From: Phoronis australis
Lineage: Eukaryota; Animalia; Phoronida
Reading direction: 5' to 3'
Length of the DNA: 64,000 nt
Assembly: GCA_002633005.1 (NCBI GenBank)
Contig: NMRA01000328.1
Location: 185,195-249,194, forward strand
Part shown: piece after piece, positions 19,954 through 54,639 of the stretch
Numbering within the stretch: the first letter of the stretch is position 1
Layout: the number at the start of each line of letters is the position of its first letter
Made by a program: the position numbers and the translations under genes
The notes under the pieces: generated by a model
Databases searched by the model: none
The model's input: the letters and a program-made list of their open reading frames with translations, nothing else
What the model was told of the DNA's origin: nothing

Positions 19954-22289
19954 TCTGTAAATTTCCAAAACAGGTCTTACCAGGTATATTCCCATGAAAG
20001 CCCAGTTGGATTAACATACTTGAAACCCATTTAGGATTTGCTTCATGTATTTCAAGGATTAACAATTTATTCTAAACCTTTCAACCTTAAATTGGTCACT
20101 TGATATCTGAGGGGTCACCACAGACAAACTCTTTTATTTCTGACAATGCTTAAACACCACAGCTTTATATAACACAATTCAAAGGAACATTGCATACTAA
20201 TGGCAAGTGACTTAAAATATATTATCTAATAGACATTTCATTTTCTTAAAAGAAATCTTAAAAGGGGTTTAAATCTGCAAGAATCTAGCAAGCAAGCCTA
20301 CGATGATACCATCAGCTAGAACTACAAAAAGGTGCGGTGTAGGAAATGATAAAAGGAAAATATAAATTGCAACCAAAAAACCGATTCTGAAGATATGCTC
20401 TAAGAGGCAAGAACTCAAATGAACACAAAGCATAAAAGAAAATTCCAAGGGCTCTGAATAAAATTTATACCAGTAGAAAATTGTAAAAAAGAATGTACCT
20501 CAAAATTCAATCTAAATTTTGAAAATATCTGAAGATCATCAAATGACATTTATAACTTTATGATATTTCAAATTAAAAAAGTAAGGAGCCCTTCAACTCC
20601 CCTGTTCAAAACCCAGTGGGTTCTTAAATAGAGTTATACCAAGTGTGGTTTAGGTGATGAGACTGCTTTCTCGGGACATTCCAATTTCATACAATAACGA
20701 GGGTCGAATGTTTTGATTTAATGTCGCGATGGTCACAAAATACCAAGTTGAGAAATAAGGCAAGTTAACACATCTTGTTTTCTATGCGGGTTAAAAAATT
20801 CCAGTAGGAAAAGAACTCATCTTGGTTATTTTTGTCTTCATAATTGCCTTTTGAAAATTTCAAGTTAACAGTAACAAGAAAAAGTGATCAAATGAGCAAT
20901 ATCATTCTAAATACAGTACGAGCCAATCAGATAAAATACAGTTTTCCGTTATGACAGCTAGTCTGTTAATGCCAACAATCGATGACTGGTAACAACTACT
21001 GTGGTGGCAAAATTCTAATTACAGAATGACCAAGCCACCTTACTGACTTTTCTGTTAATTTCCCTTCGTTCTTAGTCATCAGGGGAGACTACTCTGATGA
21101 AGCATTCGGCTTCCACCCAGGTGTTATGACAGGGCATTCAGGTCATTTTGTCTAAAAACCCTTGGCTGTGCTATAACTACCATACTCAGTGCAAGTGCTT
21201 CTGATCAAAGCACTGGCTTCTGCCAATATACACAAATACCCAGTAGTTAAAGGAGAATGCCACCCAAAAAACAACCTGTTTTGTATCAATTTAGATCGAG
21301 TAGTTCCACTCGATAACACCAAGCTCAGTTGTTTTACCCGACACCTAACGGCAGACAGAGGTGTTGAAATTAACCAATGACGTAATCGGTTCGAACGCAG
21401 TCTGTTCAGCCGTTCCCAACACGCTTACTGGTGTCAACTTATCGCTTGAATTCATCGTTTTACACCAATAAATCATCAAAATTCGATGTAAACCCCTTAC
21501 AAATACACAGTTCTTGAACAAACGTGTTGTTTTATTTCACTGTAAAAGGTATTTGAACGTACCGTAGTCTACAGAGTTCGGTAGGACAATTTACCATGGT
21601 CGGTCGCGGGAGTTTGGGTCTGTTAGGTGATAAATTCGAATCATTCTTCAGTGAAATATAGACGGGGGCACATAGCTATGTGCTGTACTTTTCGACTTCC
21701 GATTTTTCAGTTCTAAACACACAAAGCGCTTGATACTCCTCGCCAGTGGCTTGGAACCCAAACATAAACCAGCTTAAGTTGGAAACTAAACCTCCAGTCA
21801 CGAAAAGACTATAATAGTGAGCCAAAGAAATAAAATGCACGTAATTATTTAGGTGAATTAGCCACGAAACTGAAAATCTACTTACTTGTCGGCTGGCAAC
21901 ATCAAGTTTTCCTTCCACACAACTGTCAGTGCAAAGGTTGTACAGTAACAATGATTTGAATAACGTATTTATTTTGTATATCTAAATAAAGATTCCCCTA
22001 ACCTGTGACAATAGCATATAAGATTGAGTTATTGTTTCACAACAGCTTTCCGTCAGCAAACACAAAATTAGCATGCGCTCACACGGTCTCAGTGCCTAGT
22101 CGATTACCTTTCACCCATCTAAAGCCGGTACGCAATGGATTATTCATTGCTGCAGTGGCGGATCTAGGATATCACAAGGGGGGGCCCAACATTTTGTCCG
22201 GCTGTAAGCATTTGCGCACACTGACCCACGATTGTAGATGCGCATAGCACCGAATGGGGGGAGGTCGCCCAGGAAATTTTTCTGTTTTT

Positions 22290-22774
22290 NNNNNNNNNNN
22301 NNNNNNNNNNNNNNNNNNNNNNNNNNNNNNNNNNNNNNNNNNNNNNNNNNNNNNNNNNNNNNNNNNNNNNNNNNNNNNNNNNNNNNNNNNNNNNNNNNNN
22401 NNNNNNNNNNNNNNNNNNNNNNNNNNNNNNNNNNNNNNNNNNNNNNNNNNNNNNNNNNNNNNNNNNNNNNNNNNNNNNNNNNNNNNNNNNNNNNNNNNNN
22501 NNNNNNNNNNNNNNNNNNNNNNNNNNNNNNNNNNNNNNNNNNNNNNNNNNNNNNNNNNNNNNNNNNNNNNNNNNNNNNNNNNNNNNNNNNNNNNNNNNNN
22601 NNNNNNNNNNNNNNNNNNNNNNNNNNNNNNNNNNNNNNNNNNNNNNNNNNNNNNNNNNNNNNNNNNNNNNNNNNNNNNNNNNNNNNNNNNNNNNNNNNNN
22701 NNNNNNNNNNNNNNNNNNNNNNNNNNNNNNNNNNNNNNNNNNNNNNNNNNNNNNNNNNNNNNNNNNNNNNNNNN
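22290..22774. other. Assembly gap (N run); single Ns also at 18161 and 59354
   Basis: Seen directly in the sequence. Confidence 0.99.
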
Positions 22775-23288
22775 TGCCACACAGATTTCAAATGCAATAC
22801 GTGTGAGGTTCAACTTGACAAGTTTGGCACATTTACTAGGAATATGACCAAAGAACATGTTACTAGACATTCTTTACTTCTTTCATTGCAAGATACACAA
22901 ACAAACAGTGCGTTTCTGAAATCCACTGGGTTTGTCTCAGTACACTCAACACACAGTATGCAATACTTTTGTTAGGTTGAAGTATCTGTGACAAAGACAT
23001 AGCTACAATTCCAACTGAGCCTAAAACAACCGTAACTGGAAGGTGATGGCACTCAACTTCCATATTCAAGTCCCCCTGGGCCCCCCCTAAATCGGCCTAT
23101 GTGCTGGCTTCTCAAAACATTTCTACTCACGAATACTCCAAAGGCATTACAAATTGAATCTAATGAGACAGACTTTGTTTCAGTTTTATAGCATTGGTTA
23201 GGGTGAAAATAATTCATTTTGAAACATAACGCAGAATAATAAACGTCTACGTGGCAACTCGCCCGGTGCCAATCCCGACTTAGTCGAG

Positions 23289-48026: not shown

Positions 48027-48343
48027 AGGCGAAGGCAACCTTTTTTCATGTCAGTTTTAGCAAAAATAAGGTTCGTTGATTATCCCAAACATATTTTTTC
48101 ACTTATTTACTGCTTTTCGTAATTTAATTAATTACTCGTCGTCTACTCAGGAAGTGACGTTTTGGGAGGCAAGAATTTCGCGCCAATTTCTTTTCATATA
48201 TTCTGACTCTGAGAGCAGTCGAGTCGGTCATTGTTCTACCTCGGTTGTGATAAGTTCGGTCGTTGTTTGCTTTTGCTTACGAGTCAGTCAACATGCCACA
48301 CTGTTGCTGCGTTCTGGGGTGTACTCATTATCGTCTCACGCAC
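48027..48343 (+). mobile_element. Left end of Kolobok family A (TIR and first THAP codons)
   Basis: TTAA|AGGCGAAGGCAACC, collinear with 1885-2205. ATG at 48293 gives MPHCCCVLGCTHYRLTH. Confidence 0.85.
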
Positions 48344-48596
48344 AGAGGAAAAACTGTCCCACTTGCCCGAGTGTCCCACGACACACTCCCACAAGAGGGT
48401 GATCTGAGCACCCAAACTGCTTACATCCTGCCGTATGACTCCCTCGCCACACACCTGGCACCTTCCAAATAGCTCCAATACAAGTCCACAATAAACTTAT
48501 CACACTTAGGCTCACCGATCTGTTCATTGGATGACGAACTGTCCTCCTCACTGGGTGTCGAACCTGTAATACCTGTAATACCTGTCACGGACAGGA

Positions 48597-51500
48597 TCAT
48601 TGGGGATATGCTGATGCACTATTCCCCTCCCCAGACCATCCCCGTGACAGCAGAAGGCGCAGAACTCCAGGGCTGACGTTGCCTGTAAGCATTTGATTTG
48701 ACAACACTCGGGCACGGCTCTTCTTGTGACTCTTCGCAGCATGGCCATAAATGATACCGGCTTCGAGCAGTCGGCTGCCATCATTGAACTCCGCCAGTTG
48801 GGATGCAGTCTGCTCGAGGTTGTGTTTGCGGGCCAGCAGCTTAACGTCAGCCGAATATAAGTAGAGGGGTTGGTTGGTGGTGCATGAGCCAGCGAGGTAA
48901 TCTGCACGCTCATTAATCAGGACACCGGCGTGGCCAGGTACGAAAGACCAGATCACCACATGATGAGGGTGGCGTGATCGGAAGACACCCCAGTTGGCTG
49001 GGAGGTTTCCAGATTGAACTTTCATCAACACTGCCATGGAATCGGTGGCAAAGATAATGGTGTGATTCTCCAGGTCTAAGAGTGACAGCTTGATTAGGGC
49101 ACGTTGTATAGCCTCAAACTCCATCCGCGTACTGCTTGTGTATACCTGGTGGCAGCCACTACCTTCCGCAATGACGTTGTTAGCACAGCGTATTTGATAA
49201 CCCCATCCCGCACGATTAGTTTCACCATCGAAGGATCCATCAGTTGCTACAATGATGGCATTAATACCGCCAAGATCACGCCATTGCTGACGGCACAATG
49301 CTTGGGCTACTCCTGGAGGCCATTCCCGAGCTTCCCTGTTGAACGCAATAATGACATTCGGTTCCTCACCAAGTTCTTGTACTGGCAGCCAAGCAGCATC
49401 TTGCGCGATCATGTGTTCGCCGATGAGACCCATGGTTGCGTTAACAGCAGCGACAGTCCACGAGCACCTGCTAAGTCTTTGGTAGGAGGCATTGCGAAAA
49501 GGTCTAGGACGAAGTCCATAAGTTACTGTTGCAGGGACGGGGTTCACGCACCTGTCAAGTGCAGTCTTCACTTGACTGTGTAAAGGATGGAAGGGGCTTT
49601 GAACAGCCTTGGCTAAAGTAATACCTTGTAGAAGAGATTGTCTGTCTGCAATGCTGGGAACACCGACAAGGTAACGTAATGCTGCGACTGACGTAGATCT
49701 CGTACATCCAGTGATGACGCGAAGACCAATGTTTTGGAGCCTCTCAAGTCTGTTGATTTGATTTTTACTGATGTTGATCATGGGGAGAGCGTAGTCGAAG
49801 ACCGAAGTGACCAGGGCTTTATAAAGCATGACGAGGTGCCTTTCCTCCGCCTTCCGACCAGCCGCAGCCCTAAGGGCATTGATTCCTCTGTTAGCACGGC
49901 TGATCATACTGTTAACTTGAGTTGAGAAGTTGAGCCTGCGGTCGAGTTCTACACCCAAGTGACGCATGTGGTCGGATGTTGCGATCAACTTCCCATCGTA
50001 GGTAGGGCAAGGGAAATCATCAACACTGAGGCGATTGTCCAGAGTACAAAAGAGAGCTTCACATTTGTCTCCATTGCAGCTCATTCCGCTGGTAGCACAA
50101 AACTCGCAGATTTCCATCAATGTAGACTGTGCTTTGTGTAGAATCTCATGATGTGTTTGTCCTTGAGATGACAGCAGCATGTCGTCTGCAAAGGTGCGAA
50201 GTCGGCAGTCAGCGCGGTTCAGTCTGGCGAGTGGGAGGGTGTAGATATTGAACAGCACTGGGGACAGAGGTGAACCTTGGGGTAAGCCTGTGTTGACAGA
50301 TACCCATTCTGAACGCCATGTGCGATGTTTTAGCATGCATCGCCGGCTGTTGAGGGCACTCATCACCCATCTAACGCATCGTACTGGAATACCAAGATGA
50401 AGCATGCCATCCGCAAGTTTTGGAAGTTGAACAGAATTGTACGCATCTTCCAGATCAAGGCCAACGAGGAGAGTGTTTTCTTTGTTTTCAAAACCTTGCC
50501 ATATCTCATCTGCAACAGAAGCTGCATTGGCCCATGAATCTCTACCAGGTCGATAAGCACCCATTCCTGGGAGGAGCCAGGGTTCAATTAACCTGGTGAT
50601 TCTTTGTGCCATGATCCTTTCAGGGATCTTTCCAATGACGTTCTGCATCACTATGATGCGATATCCCTTGAGTGCACGATGGTCTTTTCCAGGTTTTGGT
50701 ACAGGAATTAAGAAGGCATCTGTCCAGATGTGAGGGATGATACCAGTGGCCAGACTGACGTTGTAGGACTTCACAAGCTTGGCCAGCAGAGAGTCAGGCA
50801 AAGACTTGAGTGTCAGGACTCTCACGCCATCGGGGCCAGGGGCACCCTCTTTGCAAGTTTTGATAGCATCCGCAACCTGTGCTGTAGAGAATTGACTGTC
50901 CTGTTCAGCTGTGTTGCAAAGTCCATCTAGTTGTTGGATGAGGAGGTTTTTTTCAGATTCATCACTGTGGTCACTTTGCTGGATGAAACGCAGTAGAAAA
51001 GCCTCACCCTGTTCCCTGTCACTTCTGAGAATGGTGTTGCTTGCATTCAGTAGGATGGATCTGGGAGGAGCGCGTCTTTTGTCCATGTTACGATGGAAGT
51101 GCCAGAAATCTGTAGCTGTCAAGTTGGATCGGCTGCAAAGCTCATCCCATCGACGATTGGCAGCCTCGGATGCTGAGCGTTTGAACAGGGCAGTGGCCCT
51201 GTTTCTGGCTGTTCTGACGACCGTGAACTCTTCCGGTGTGCAGTTTTGGCGTGCACGATCAAAATCCCGCTCTTTGGAGCGCTTGTTGGCCCAGGCAGTG
51301 TCAACATCTTTATTCCACCAAGTAGGGGGGTTCTGCCTCCTGTAGTGGCATACGTGCTTATGTAAGCTTTTTGCGTGTCTGCACACTGATTTCCAGATTT
51401 CATCCCCTTCAGTATTATTGTAAGGCCGTTTATAAGTTGTTACAGGAGCCTTTAATTGGTGGTGTAGTTGAACTTCACACAAGTAGTGATCGCTACCAGC

Positions 51501-52391
51501 TTGACAACTCCTACGCCACTCAGCACGGTCGCGAAGACTGTCGCTGCTCAGAGCAAGGTCAATGCACGAGTCCTTGTCACCCGGTCTCTCAGCCATCCTT
51601 GTGGGTTCACCAGAGTTGAGAATATATAAATCTAGTTCTGGAAGGCATTCGGCGAGACCTTTACCATTTGGGTTCACACCGTAGACATCCCAGTTGGGAT
51701 GACGAGCATTAAAGTCACCAACAATGAGAATGTCGGGATAGATGTGAAGAAGATTGTGAAGAAAATTCCAATGGTCGCAGCTAGGGGAGGAGTTTCCCCG
51801 TATATACAGATTGACTAGTGTGAATGGGTCGTGGAAACCAGGATCAGTGACACTTATAATCTGTAGTTGCCTGTCAGTGGTAGTGAAACTGTGAGTATCC
51901 ACAAGCTCTACCATGGTGTGGCTGTCTTTGTTGATTGCGTACGCCAGGCCATTGGTGATGCCCTCTTTAGGAAAAAAGAAGCCTTCGAGTTCAAAGTCTG
52001 TTAGGTCCTTGAGTTTGGTTTCTTGGAACAGGAGAATGTCGTAGCCCGCACAGATTTTATCCAGTATATGTTTGCTGCCACGTATGCCACGTATATTACA
52101 GTAACCAATCCTGAGACGGTTGAGTTGAAGTCTTTCGTACTTGAGTTGTCGGGCACGTTTGCCAGCTCTTTTACCTCTGCGTTTCTTTCTAGGTCCGCGC
52201 TTTCTGGCGCCACGGCGGATGTTCTGTCCGGCTGCACTTTCCCAGTCGCGCCGTCCAGCATCCGTATGGACGTTTACTTCTGTAATAAATCTTGAAGCAG
52301 GCGATGGAGTAACGATAAGCCTGTCGAGGTTGTAACAACCTCTAAGCCCCCTACGCCCAAAGGGGCAGGCTAACCGCGGCGGGACAGTTCC
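48597..52391 (-). CDS. Retrotransposon polyprotein: basic leader, AP endonuclease, reverse transcriptase, RNase H (1264 codons stop-to-stop; first AUG only at 51914)
   Basis: APE motifs YCNIRG, FQETKL, GDFNARHPNW, CIDL and GSDHY. RT motifs GAPGPDG, LDLEDAYNSV, GLPQGSPLSPVLFNIY and FADD. RNase H motifs ATDGS, STRMEFEAI, ATDS and PGHAGVLINERAD. The frame stays open for 159 codons upstream of the tracked ORF, up to TAG 52392-52394. Confidence 0.93.
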   Translation of the reverse strand, partial: GTVPPRLACPFGRRGLRGCYNLDRLIVTPSPASRFITEVNVHTDAGRRDWESAAGQNIRRGARKRGPRKKRRGKRAGKRARQLKYERLQLNRLRIGYCNIRGIRGSKHILDKICAGYDILLFQETKLKDLTDFELEGFFFPKEGITNGLAYAINKDSHTMVELVDTHSFTTTDRQLQIISVTDPGFHDPFTLVNLYIRGNSSPSCDHWNFLHNLLHIYPDILIVGDFNARHPNWDVYGVNPNGKGLAECLPELDLYILNSGEPTRMAERPGDKDSCIDLALSSDSLRDRAEWRRSCQAGSDHYLCEVQLHHQLKAPVTTYKRPYNNTEGDEIWKSVCRHAKSLHKHVCHYRRQNPPTWWNKDVDTAWANKRSKERDFDRARQNCTPEEFTVVRTARNRATALFKRSASEAANRRWDELCSRSNLTATDFWHFHRNMDKRRAPPRSILLNASNTILRSDREQGEAFLLRFIQQSDHSDESEKNLLIQQLDGLCNTAEQDSQFSTAQVADAIKTCKEGAPGPDGVRVLTLKSLPDSLLAKLVKSYNVSLATGIIPHIWTDAFLIPVPKPGKDHRALKGYRIIVMQNVIGKIPERIMAQRITRLIEPWLLPGMGAYRPGRDSWANAASVADEIWQGFENKENTLLVGLDLEDAYNSVQLPKLADGMLHLGIPVRCVRWVMSALNSRRCMLKHRTWRSEWVSVNTGLPQGSPLSPVLFNIYTLPLARLNRADCRLRTFADDMLLSSQGQTHHEILHKAQSTLMEICEFCATSGMSCNGDKCEALFCTLDNRLSVDDFPCPTYDGKLIATSDHMRHLGVELDRRLNFSTQVNSMISRANRGINALRAAAGRKAEERHLVMLYKALVTSVFDYALPMINISKNQINRLERLQNIGLRVITGCTRSTSVAALRYLVGVPSIADRQSLLQGITLAKAVQSPFHPLHSQVKTALDRCVNPVPATVTYGLRPRPFRNASYQRLSRCSWTVAAVNATMGLIGEHMIAQDAAWLPVQELGEEPNVIIAFNREAREWPPGVAQALCRQQWRDLGGINAIIVATDGSFDGETNRAGWGYQIRCANNVIAEGSGCHQVYTSSTRMEFEAIQRALIKLSLLDLENHTIIFATDSMAVLMKVQSGNLPANWGVFRSRHPHHVVIWSFVPGHAGVLINERADYLAGSCTTNQPLYLYSADVKLLARKHNLEQTASQLAEFNDGSRLLEAGIIYGHAAKSHKKSRARVLSNQMLTGNVSPGVLRLLLSRGWSGEGNSASAYPQ

Positions 52392-52913
52392 CTACTGGCC
52401 TGGGGCTGCCAGGCTTAAGGCGGGCGGCAACTGACCAATGAGGGTTAAAGAACCCCTCCCACCGTCATGCGTGGCCCCTGACGCCCACCCGACGCCGATG
52501 AGGTGAAGGCTTAGAATCGGTAAACTGCCACGCACCGGTATGTTCACTGACACAATGTGGCAGCCGGGAGTGACCTCTCCCGGACCCCTGACCAAGAAGA
52601 CAATCCGTCGTCTCCTGCCCTTCTGAACGTTGAGTGCGTAGGACAAGTAAGGTATCCAACAGACACTTCGTCCACTCTGATGGGGGGGTCAGCTCCACCT
52701 GCAGCTCTTTGCAGTTCTTCTGACCGTGAGTGCCAGAGATGTGGAGAGCATCTGAAAGGCACCAAGTCTGCTCAGCCACAAAAAATAGTATTTTACAAGA
52801 CAAGGTAGTAAGTCTTGAGCCCAACCAATGAAGGGTGCTATTTGCCCATAGCTGGGAGTTAGGTTGGTGAACGCCAGAGCATATCCATACACCGATGGGT
52901 CATGCACGTTGCA

Positions 52914-53179
52914 CCTTTAAGAGCCTAACCTCTTCCGAGATCCCTTGCAAAATTTAGCCTGGGGCCGCAGGGTGCCCAGTTACCATGGTGTACCACGAGG
53001 AGGTACTGCAAGAGTCTTGATTAGAGGTAGTTAAAGGCCACCAAGGCGGGTCTTACACATGCCTTCCTAATTCGTCTCAGAGGACTAGGTGGTCGTAGAA
53101 GCTGAAAGCTAGAAAGTGCAAGCACTAACTATACTAAGCTACACTAACTACACATCTAACCCTGTGTCGAAGACACCAC
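52914..53179 (-). ncRNA. HDV-like self-cleaving ribozyme at the retrotransposon 5' end (long J1/2)
   Basis: P1 GUGGUGU (53179-53173) pairs with ACACCAU (52991-52985), including a G1-U wobble. P3/L3 is ACC-UCCUCGU-GGU. P1.1 is CC/GG. P4 is CUGGG...CCCAG. J4/2 is GCUAA with the putative catalytic C at 52957. P2 CUCUUGCA/UGCAAGGG is extended by ACCUCU/AGAGGU and CCUUUAA/UUAAAGG. Confidence 0.85.
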
Positions 53180-54639
53180 ACCACTGGGTGTCGAACTGGG
53201 ACTGTATTCACTACCACTACTCAACATCGCTGCCGGGCTGCTTACAGGCTCTGGGCTAGAGACAACAGCACAGGGCGAATCACTGCTAGTTCATGGAATT
53301 GCACGCAATGGGGTACGTTCGGAGGCACGGATGACAGTAGATGCAGTGCCTCCAGTCACTGTATATAGTGGCCACAGCTCGCGAGGCTTCTCGCTTCAAA
53401 AACGCACTTCTAGGGGTTGGCGACGGGGCACTGCTGGGAATCAACATTGGCGGTATGGTACTCTTCTTCAGGCGTTGTTTCGCAGGGACCTTCATCAATT
53501 CAGCGCAATCTGACGGCAGAAAATGTTTGCCACACACTTGGTAACCCTCCACTGCTTTGTACGTTGCGTGGACGGGTAGCGCTGCGTTCTTCCCATGAAC
53601 GAGCTAGCCAAGTACGGCGAAGTGTGTCATCCTTCGAAAAGCGACGCAAGGTACCCAAAGCGTGTGTGAGAGGATAATGAGTACATCCCGGCACGCAGCA
53701 ACAGGGTGGCATGTTAACTGACTTGTAAACAAAAGCAAACGACGACCGAACTTATCACAAACGAGGTAGAACAATGACTGACCGGCAGTAATCGTACTGT
53801 AATGTCGGCAGCTTCGCGGCTAAGTCTACAGCTAACTCCTGTTGAAATTCTCCATACTTCAAAATTCCTGTTTGCAAGTGCTTGGAATTGCCATTCAATG
53901 GTTTTCATAATAAGAGACTAGAAATCCGAGTTGTCACACACGCCCACTGGCCTGGTGCTGCCTTACATTTTCACTGGCCACCTTGCTACAGTCGACTTGC
54001 GCAATAGACGAATTAGTGTCCACATTTGTGGTCACGTGCCGGGCTCAGACCCATGAGACAAGTTGCAGCAACAAATTCAGTGCGAATCCATAAACCCTTT
54101 TACACACACAATTAAATGCGCAAAAATGCTCCTGAATATCTTAAACCTTTAATTTAATGCTCAAGCTATACAACGAGTGCGTGTTGAAACACAACATTGA
54201 CCTTGGACCAAAGATGGACTCCTTGCATCAGACCTTAGTAAGCCGGGGGAAGGCGAGTGCCACCCCCAAGAAATGCATGCCTCAGGTTCAAACCATGGCA
54301 ACCGACAAAGGTGTGGGGCTGGGGAAAGACAAAAAAGAAAGTCTTCGAATACTGATCAGAAAGAAAATTCAAGAGAACATTGACAACTCGGTATCAGTGT
54401 ATGGTTTACCATTTGAGGGCCCTCTCCAGTACAATTGTTGTTAGGGTCTCCGTTTTTGCAGCTTAGGTCGTCTAAGCGCCCTTGAAAATGTGCACTTAAT
54501 CATTCATACATGTATTTCGAAAATTCGAGAAAAGTTTTGCGAAGCGTATTAATTCAGTCCAAGTTTTTCAGTGGTCCATAGGCGGTGCACTACGGGGGGC
54601 TGAGAGGGCTTTAGCTCCCACTTTTTTCAGTACTGCGCC

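What the first reader, a model, noticed from the sequence alone, without database searches (positions are those of the whole stretch)
52914..53179. Complete HDV-like ribozyme whose P1 begins at the retrotransposon 5' boundary
Seen: on the minus strand every part of the HDV nested double pseudoknot can be assigned. P1 GUGGUGU sits 2 nt inside the TSD and pairs, across a ~160-nt J1/2, with ACACCAU. P3/L3 is ACC-UCCUCGU-GGU, GG supplies P1.1, P4 is CUGGG/CCCAG, J4/2 is GCUAA, and P2 has a long bulged extension. Known: HDV-like ribozymes process the 5' ends of R2, RTE and trypanosome L1Tc/Ingi RNAs. Inference: the RNA 5' end is made by self-cleavage before G53179, which agrees with the TSD-defined end. 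I do not know whether this family or ribozyme has been described.
Basis: partly seen in the sequence, partly recalled or inferred. Interest (0 to 1): 0.8.

Follow-up and report, generated by a model that had tools for sequence, protein, structure and literature searches.

The report
Self-cutting RNA heads animal retrotransposon

Summary
The HDV-like fold is real: 1 hit in the window, 0 full hits in 100 shuffles. A family at 47% protein identity (L002) has the same core with compensatory changes in P2 and P3. It heads a 4.6-kb single-ORF non-LTR retrotransposon (APE, RT, RNase H) with a target duplication, inserted in a TIR element.

The cut site needs correcting. The P1 5' strand exists in two overlapping registers. 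Other genomic copies leave into unrelated flanks at 53183-53185, none at 53179. The family starts at G53184, and the cut is likely just before it. The target duplication overlaps it by 3 nt.

The long J1/2 is predicted to form a P1.2 helix beside a 13-bp P2. A closer sister family (L004) has a target duplication but no ribozyme. A second covarying RNA domain lies over an ORF start with no conserved AUG.

Cleavage is untested, and the clade (Ingi-like, I group) is not settled. Ribozymes at LINE 5' ends are known, Ingi included. This scan noted ribozyme-headed Vingi elements on other DNA, but not this family. Verdict: new member of a known kind.

The parts
53182..53196 (-). 5' copy of the target duplication (15 nt; the last 3 nt overlap the element's first 3 nt, so 12-15 bp)
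   Evidence: the empty host site has one copy
53178..53184 (-). P1 5' strand, upstream register; G53184 is the family's first base and the predicted +1 after cleavage
   Evidence: predicted
53019..53161 (-). J1/2 peripheral domain, predicted P1.2 helix ending one base before P2
   Evidence: same closing helix in the L002 centroid fold; energy not beyond shuffles (z -0.67)
53005..53017 (-). P2 5' strand (13 bp with bulges)
   Evidence: 3 pairs changed on both sides against L002
52992..53004 (-). P3 and L3
   Evidence: A-U in the window, G-C in L002
52983..52991 (-). P1 3' strand (52991-52985) and the two G of P1.1
52959..52979 (-). P4
   Evidence: 7 of 7 pairs invariant in both families
52954..52958 (-). 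J4/2 with the predicted catalytic C52957
52938..52953 (-). P2 3' strand with a 2-nt bulge that is deleted in some copies
52833..52858 (-). motif that opens the RTE 5'-UTR / Ceph-type domain
   Evidence: near-identical by eye to RTE-3_BF from position 325 in the supplement of PMC5786205
52325..52610 (-). second conserved structured RNA domain over the UTR/ORF junction (approximate limits)
   Evidence: 59-70% identity among 4 families, 27 of 77 predicted pairs changed on both sides
48597..52391 (-). single stop-free frame, 1264 codons: APE endonuclease, RT, RNase H; first Met at codon 160, inside APE; no 2A motif
48562..48585 (-). 3' tail of 9-nt tandem repeats, overlapping the TSD by 2 nt
48549..48563 (-). 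3' copy of the target duplication
53662..53782 (.). one terminal inverted repeat of the host element that the LINE interrupts (partner 48223-48343, 90%)

Best explanation
This is an HDV-like fold at the first base of an intact single-ORF non-LTR retrotransposon (APE, RT, RNase H), and it likely cuts the element's RNA out of read-through host transcripts just before G53184. Shown: the fold's parts, the element, its boundary at 53184 in other copies, and a homologous core in a distant family. Inferred: the transcript starts in host DNA; as it is made, the hairpin and P1.2 fold first and hold the P1 strand next to a 13-bp P2; C52957 with Mg2+ then catalyses the cut, leaving a 5'-OH RNA of exact unit length. 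Reverse transcription copies to that end, and the second strand was primed here on a 3-nt match between the cDNA end and the target, which explains the overlap with the TSD. The uncapped RNA is probably translated from a non-AUG start set by the downstream structured domain; this is the weakest step.
For: Descriptor: 1 hit, 0 full hits in 100 shuffles. Family boundary at 53183-53185 in 6 of 8 listed contigs, with at least 4 different flanks, and a collapsed 63.8x contig ending at 53184; 3 of 3 in run X3. That base begins a perfect 7-bp P1 with a G-U first pair. L002 core: 47 of 48 cells paired, 4 of 25 pairs changed on both sides, against 19-55% paired when partners are slid. L002's P1 3' strand differs at 2 places and both changes still pair with the window's 5' strand (by inspection). 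Upstream register -82.9 versus -79.3 kcal/mol. Long J1/2 with P1.2 and extended P2 activates drz-Agam-2-1 (PMC4908430, first 10,000 characters read). J1/2 of 23 to over 700 nt, P1 fixing the cut site, and microhomology priming are described for R2 (PMC3774820, passages).
Against: No cleavage assay. Covariation rests on two sequences; 40 of 500 shuffles reach the observed values. L002 lacks a perfect P1 5' strand (best 3 sites have 1 mismatch); I read it as 5'-truncated but its TSD could not be checked. A sister subfamily contig (X4 record 16, rows assigned by depth) has three changes in the P1 3' strand, two of which would not pair with this P1; its own 5' end differs and could not be read. 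The J1/2 fold is not beyond shuffles (z -0.67 and -0.19), and the unconstrained fold does not form P1 (the tool cannot fold pseudoknots). No Rfam hit. One contig matches on to 53193. A closer family (L004) spread without this ribozyme, so it is not essential in the clade.
Confidence: 0.85

Rival explanations
1. Same ribozyme, but it cuts before G53179.
For: The 7-mer at 53179 also pairs perfectly; in the window's own flank both registers are partly paired in a local fold.
Against: No listed contig ends at 53179; 6 of 8 end at 53183-53185. RNA cut at 53179 could not give copies that carry the 5 upstream letters. This register costs the hairpin.
Confidence: 0.04
2. The fold is kept as a protective or protein-binding 5' cap, or is switched off by downstream pairing, while the RNA starts at 53184 from an internal promoter; cleavage is slow or unused.
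For: L1Tc's first 77 nt are both promoter and ribozyme, and downstream sequence inhibits cleavage (PMC3185411, passages). Here 52937-52913 can take the P1.2 strand. L004 does without the module.
Against: L3, P1.1 and J4/2 with the catalytic C are kept between families whose proteins are 47% identical, which is what catalysis would constrain.
Confidence: 0.09
3. Chance match to a short consensus.
For: No Rfam hit; the descriptor was written after seeing the sequence.
Against: 0 full hits in 100 shuffles; homologous core at the same place in L002 with compensatory changes; P1 coincides with the boundary.
Confidence: 0.02

Closest known systems
L1TcRz / Pr77 of trypanosomatid L1Tc and ingi (PMC3185411, passages; PMC6765202, passages)
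   Same: HDV-like ribozyme at the first base of a dispersed LINE whose protein has APE, RT and RNase H; TSD usually 12 bp.
   Different: L1TcRz is 77 nt; this one spans about 250 nt with a 160-nt J1/2. No 2A motif here. Host is inferred to be an animal (nearest named RT relatives are barnacle, 43%).
drz-Agam-2-1, large HDV-like ribozyme (PMC4908430, first part read)
   Same: Structured J1/2 (P1.2) plus an extended P2 of 12-13 bp.
   Different: The P1.2 here is predicted, with weak comparative support; no sequence comparison was made.
R2 ribozymes (PMC3774820, passages)
   Same: Long J1/2; P1 pairing fixes the cut; 5' junctions by microhomology when the cut is at the element's end.
   Different: R2 is site-specific in 28S rDNA with another type of endonuclease; this element is dispersed and APE-type.
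Ingi-3_AC and RTE 5' UTRs (PMC5786205, parts 1-3 of 5 and supplement passages)
   Same: [quoted passage not shown]
   Different: Only the opening motif of that domain is seen in the window. No Ingi-3_AC protein was available, so kinship is untested. The paper suggests recombination with a Ceph-SINE as one possibility; here the RTE-like UTR parts recur in 4 families of one clade.

Membership tests
HDV-like ribozyme | Nested double pseudoknot P1, P1.1, P2, P3, P4 in the right order | tested here: met
HDV-like ribozyme | Conserved L3 and J4/2 with catalytic C; G at +1 paired to U or C (consensus recalled) | tested here: met
   same letters in L002 except the last base of L3
HDV-like ribozyme | Compensatory changes in P2 and P3 | tested here: met
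   4 of 25 pairs, two sequences only, 40/500 shuffles as high
HDV-like ribozyme | Compensatory changes in P1 | tested here: inconclusive
   L002 lacks the 5' strand; the sister subfamily's 5' end could not be read
HDV-like ribozyme | Mg2+-dependent self-cleavage before the first base of P1, lost on changing the catalytic C | not testable with these tools
   needs an assay; RNA reads showed no end pile-up at low depth
Rfam HDV-type families | Score against a curated covariance model | tested here: not met
   so not filed under any Rfam family
Non-LTR retrotransposon, I group | APE, RT and RNase H domains; TSD; tandem-repeat 3' tail | tested here: met
Ingi clade | Single ORF with APE, RT, RNase H and no ORF1 | tested here: met
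Ingi clade | N-terminal 2A-like peptide (reported for Ingi, Tcoingi, Tvingi, L1Tc and Ingi-1_AC, PMC3708506) | tested here: not met
   no motif in 5 of 5 proteins scanned
Ingi clade | RT groups with named Ingi elements in a tree | not tested
   No named reference was held as a usable sequence. Two family motifs have 0 hits in the RTclass1 file of PMC3708506; the family is a separate cluster, 36 of 45,210 hits at E<=1e-30
Vingi clade | No RNase H (PMC13708176, passage) | tested here: not met
   RNase H present

The most novel reading that the evidence does not exclude
In this single-ORF, RNase H-bearing LINE lineage the 5' UTR is modular: a large HDV-like ribozyme sets the RNA's first base and can be dropped whole (lost in the L004 family), while a separate covarying RNA domain about 330-600 nt downstream, kept by all four families, starts translation without an AUG. 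That would split processing from cap-independent initiation, jobs so far credited to the ribozyme itself, and give natural ribozyme-plus and ribozyme-minus sisters for a direct test.
Probability: 0.3. Interest if true: 0.6.

Novelty: new member of a known kind. Interest (0 to 1): 0.33.

Why it matters
It extends ribozyme-defined 5' ends to an unclassified animal I-group LINE lineage and adds a natural large-J1/2 ribozyme. It shows that a TSD in one copy can misplace the cut site when the ends share microhomology. The intact ORF, the ribozyme-less sister family and the second RNA domain make the open question of how uncapped LINE RNAs are translated testable. The core finding is ordinary for specialists.

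Tried and rejected
Rfam: 0 hits at gathering score in the whole window; only chance hits by E-value around the site, in L004 and in L002. No genome is held for the window and the loci's assemblies are not held. No RNA holder was listed. Three RNA runs of the same species label (18-19% of each read) cover the UTR at about 0-9 reads per bin with first mates in both directions and no start or end pile-up: no evidence either way. My descriptors found no ribozyme in the 63 related loci and missed L002; L002 was found by alignment. The two-sequence model found only its 2 training sequences in 64 sources, and nothing better than E 0.1 with filters off in 16 of the 63 loci. Viral contigs hold no relative of the protein (0 of 118 candidates). 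Pattern scans of prokaryote and viral contigs gave 54 and 64 loci, which I did not link to this element. PDB holds only distant relatives. The careful tree did not finish; the quick tree was used. Ruminski 2011 and Kojima 2011 are not held, so I know them only as cited in PMC5786205 and PMC6765202; their supplements may already list this family or a relative. Six paper searches listed no paper that by title or abstract describes a ribozyme in an animal Ingi-like element; Repbase and Dfam could not be searched. No look-alike earlier finding by sequence.

Full report
The element. The minus strand carries one stop-free frame of 1264 codons at 52391-48597 with APE endonuclease, reverse transcriptase and RNase H. 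It ends in 9-nt tandem repeats and is flanked by a 15-nt direct repeat at 53196-53182 and 48563-48549. It interrupts a high-copy element with 121-bp inverted ends. A second copy of that host in the window and several hundred RNA reads per run show the empty site with one copy of the target, so the duplication is real and includes its last three letters.

The fold. A strict descriptor hit once in the window; 100 dinucleotide shuffles gave 1 core-only and 0 full hits. I wrote the descriptor after seeing the sequence, so this control is generous. Rfam has no match; a 160-nt J1/2 would be enough to cause that (inference).

The correction. The P1 5' 7-mer occurs at 53184 and again at 53179. Contigs from other copies decide between them. 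In one search, 18 of 29 laid records were listed and 8 reach past 53178: four end at 53184 (one a collapsed 63.8x contig), one each at 53183, 53185 and 53193, and one is the window's own allele. The loose ends show at least 4 different flanks. In one search, the 3 listed long X3 contigs that reach the end stop at 53184. These come from two samples of one study, and X1-X3 can repeat records. None ends at 53179. The upstream register also folds better, -82.9 against -79.3 kcal/mol, because it spares the hairpin at 53176-53164. So the family begins at G53184, the predicted cut is before it, and the TSD (12-15 bp) overlaps the element by 3 nt. Microhomology priming of this kind is proposed for R2 elements that cut at their own 5' end (PMC3774820, passages).

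Comparative support. Of 63 related loci, L002 (47% protein identity) has a homologous core at the matching place. On 25 pairs, 47 of 48 cells pair and 4 pairs change on both sides (3 in P2, 1 in P3); slid controls pair 19-55%; 40 of 500 shuffles do as well, as expected with only two rows. Its P1 3' strand differs at two places that both still pair with the window's 5' strand. Against: L002 has no perfect P1 5' strand; its similarity begins at the hairpin, so I read it as slightly truncated, untested. Within the host, some contigs delete the 2-nt P2 bulge. A sister subfamily has a changed P1 3' strand and another 5' end that I could not read, and two diverged copies carry changes in L3, P1.1 or J4/2 (rows assigned by depth).

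Architecture. With P1 fixed, J1/2 folds into a hairpin and a long P1.2 helix that ends one base before a 13-bp P2; L002's centroid fold has the same closing helix with different letters. This resembles the pinch that activates drz-Agam-2-1 (PMC4908430). The J1/2 energies are not beyond shuffles (z -0.67, -0.19), so P1.2 is a prediction.

The module is optional in the clade. L004/L005 is a whole element with a 13-bp TSD whose first bases are an RTE-like UTR. Three more insertion sites (L013/L017, L027/L028, L041) start within a few bases of it, and L032-L034 a little further in. No ribozyme was found in them. In a quick tree the window groups with L004 (SH-aLRT 98) to the exclusion of L002, which favours loss of an ancestral ribozyme; a module swap, or a ribozyme too divergent for a two-sequence model, is not excluded.

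Translation. The first Met is codon 160, inside APE, and there is no 2A motif. At the codon where L002 has ATG, the window and the 12 other loci anchored do not. About 290 nt over the UTR/ORF junction are 59-70% identical among 4 families, with 27 of 77 consensus pairs changed on both sides and 27 of 307 cells unpaired (the structure was derived from these sequences and no shuffle control was run). A role in non-AUG initiation is inference.

Classification and novelty. It works like L1TcRz and the R2 and RTE ribozymes and meets the testable features of an HDV-like ribozyme. [quoted passage not shown] The element has Ingi's domain layout but no 2A peptide, and its RT forms a distinct cluster whose motifs are absent from the RTclass1 set, so I call it Ingi-like, I group, clade unassigned. 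Earlier notes of this scan describe minimal ribozymes on Vingi-type elements in other genomes; I did not test them. Verdict: real, new member of a known kind, interest 0.33.

Noticed in passing
window 52325-52610 (-): Conserved, covarying RNA structure over an ORF start without a conserved AUG, shared by 4 families at about 50% protein identity; candidate initiation element.
   Followed up: partly
L004:603-1100, L013, L027, L041: Sister family begins with an RTE-like 5' UTR and has no HDV core; 13-bp TSD in L004/L005.
   Followed up: partly
window 48223-53782 and about 1881-2849: Host is a very high-copy element with 121-bp terminal inverted repeats, likely a non-autonomous DNA transposon; abundant in RNA reads in both directions.
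   Followed up: partly
window 53195-53188 and 53171-53164: The target site and the element's first hairpin share an 8-nt match; it could have helped cDNA-target annealing or be chance. It also lets this flank pair with the element's 5' end.
   Followed up: no
window 53133-53167 and 52934-53035: A sister subfamily in runs X1, X2 and X4 shares these stretches but has a different J1/2, P1 3' strand and 5' end.
   Followed up: partly
L118-L181 and L077: The strict descriptor gave 21 full hits in the 118 pattern-selected loci, 20 of them in viral contigs; probably phage HDV-like ribozymes, a class I recall as described. The loci were selected for the core, so this is no independent control.
   Followed up: no
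L004:894-990: A near-perfect local inverted duplication in this copy's UTR gives miRNA-like Rfam scores below gathering.
   Followed up: no
window 22144-22975: Open frames on both strands in several phases, probably a simple repeat.
   Followed up: no
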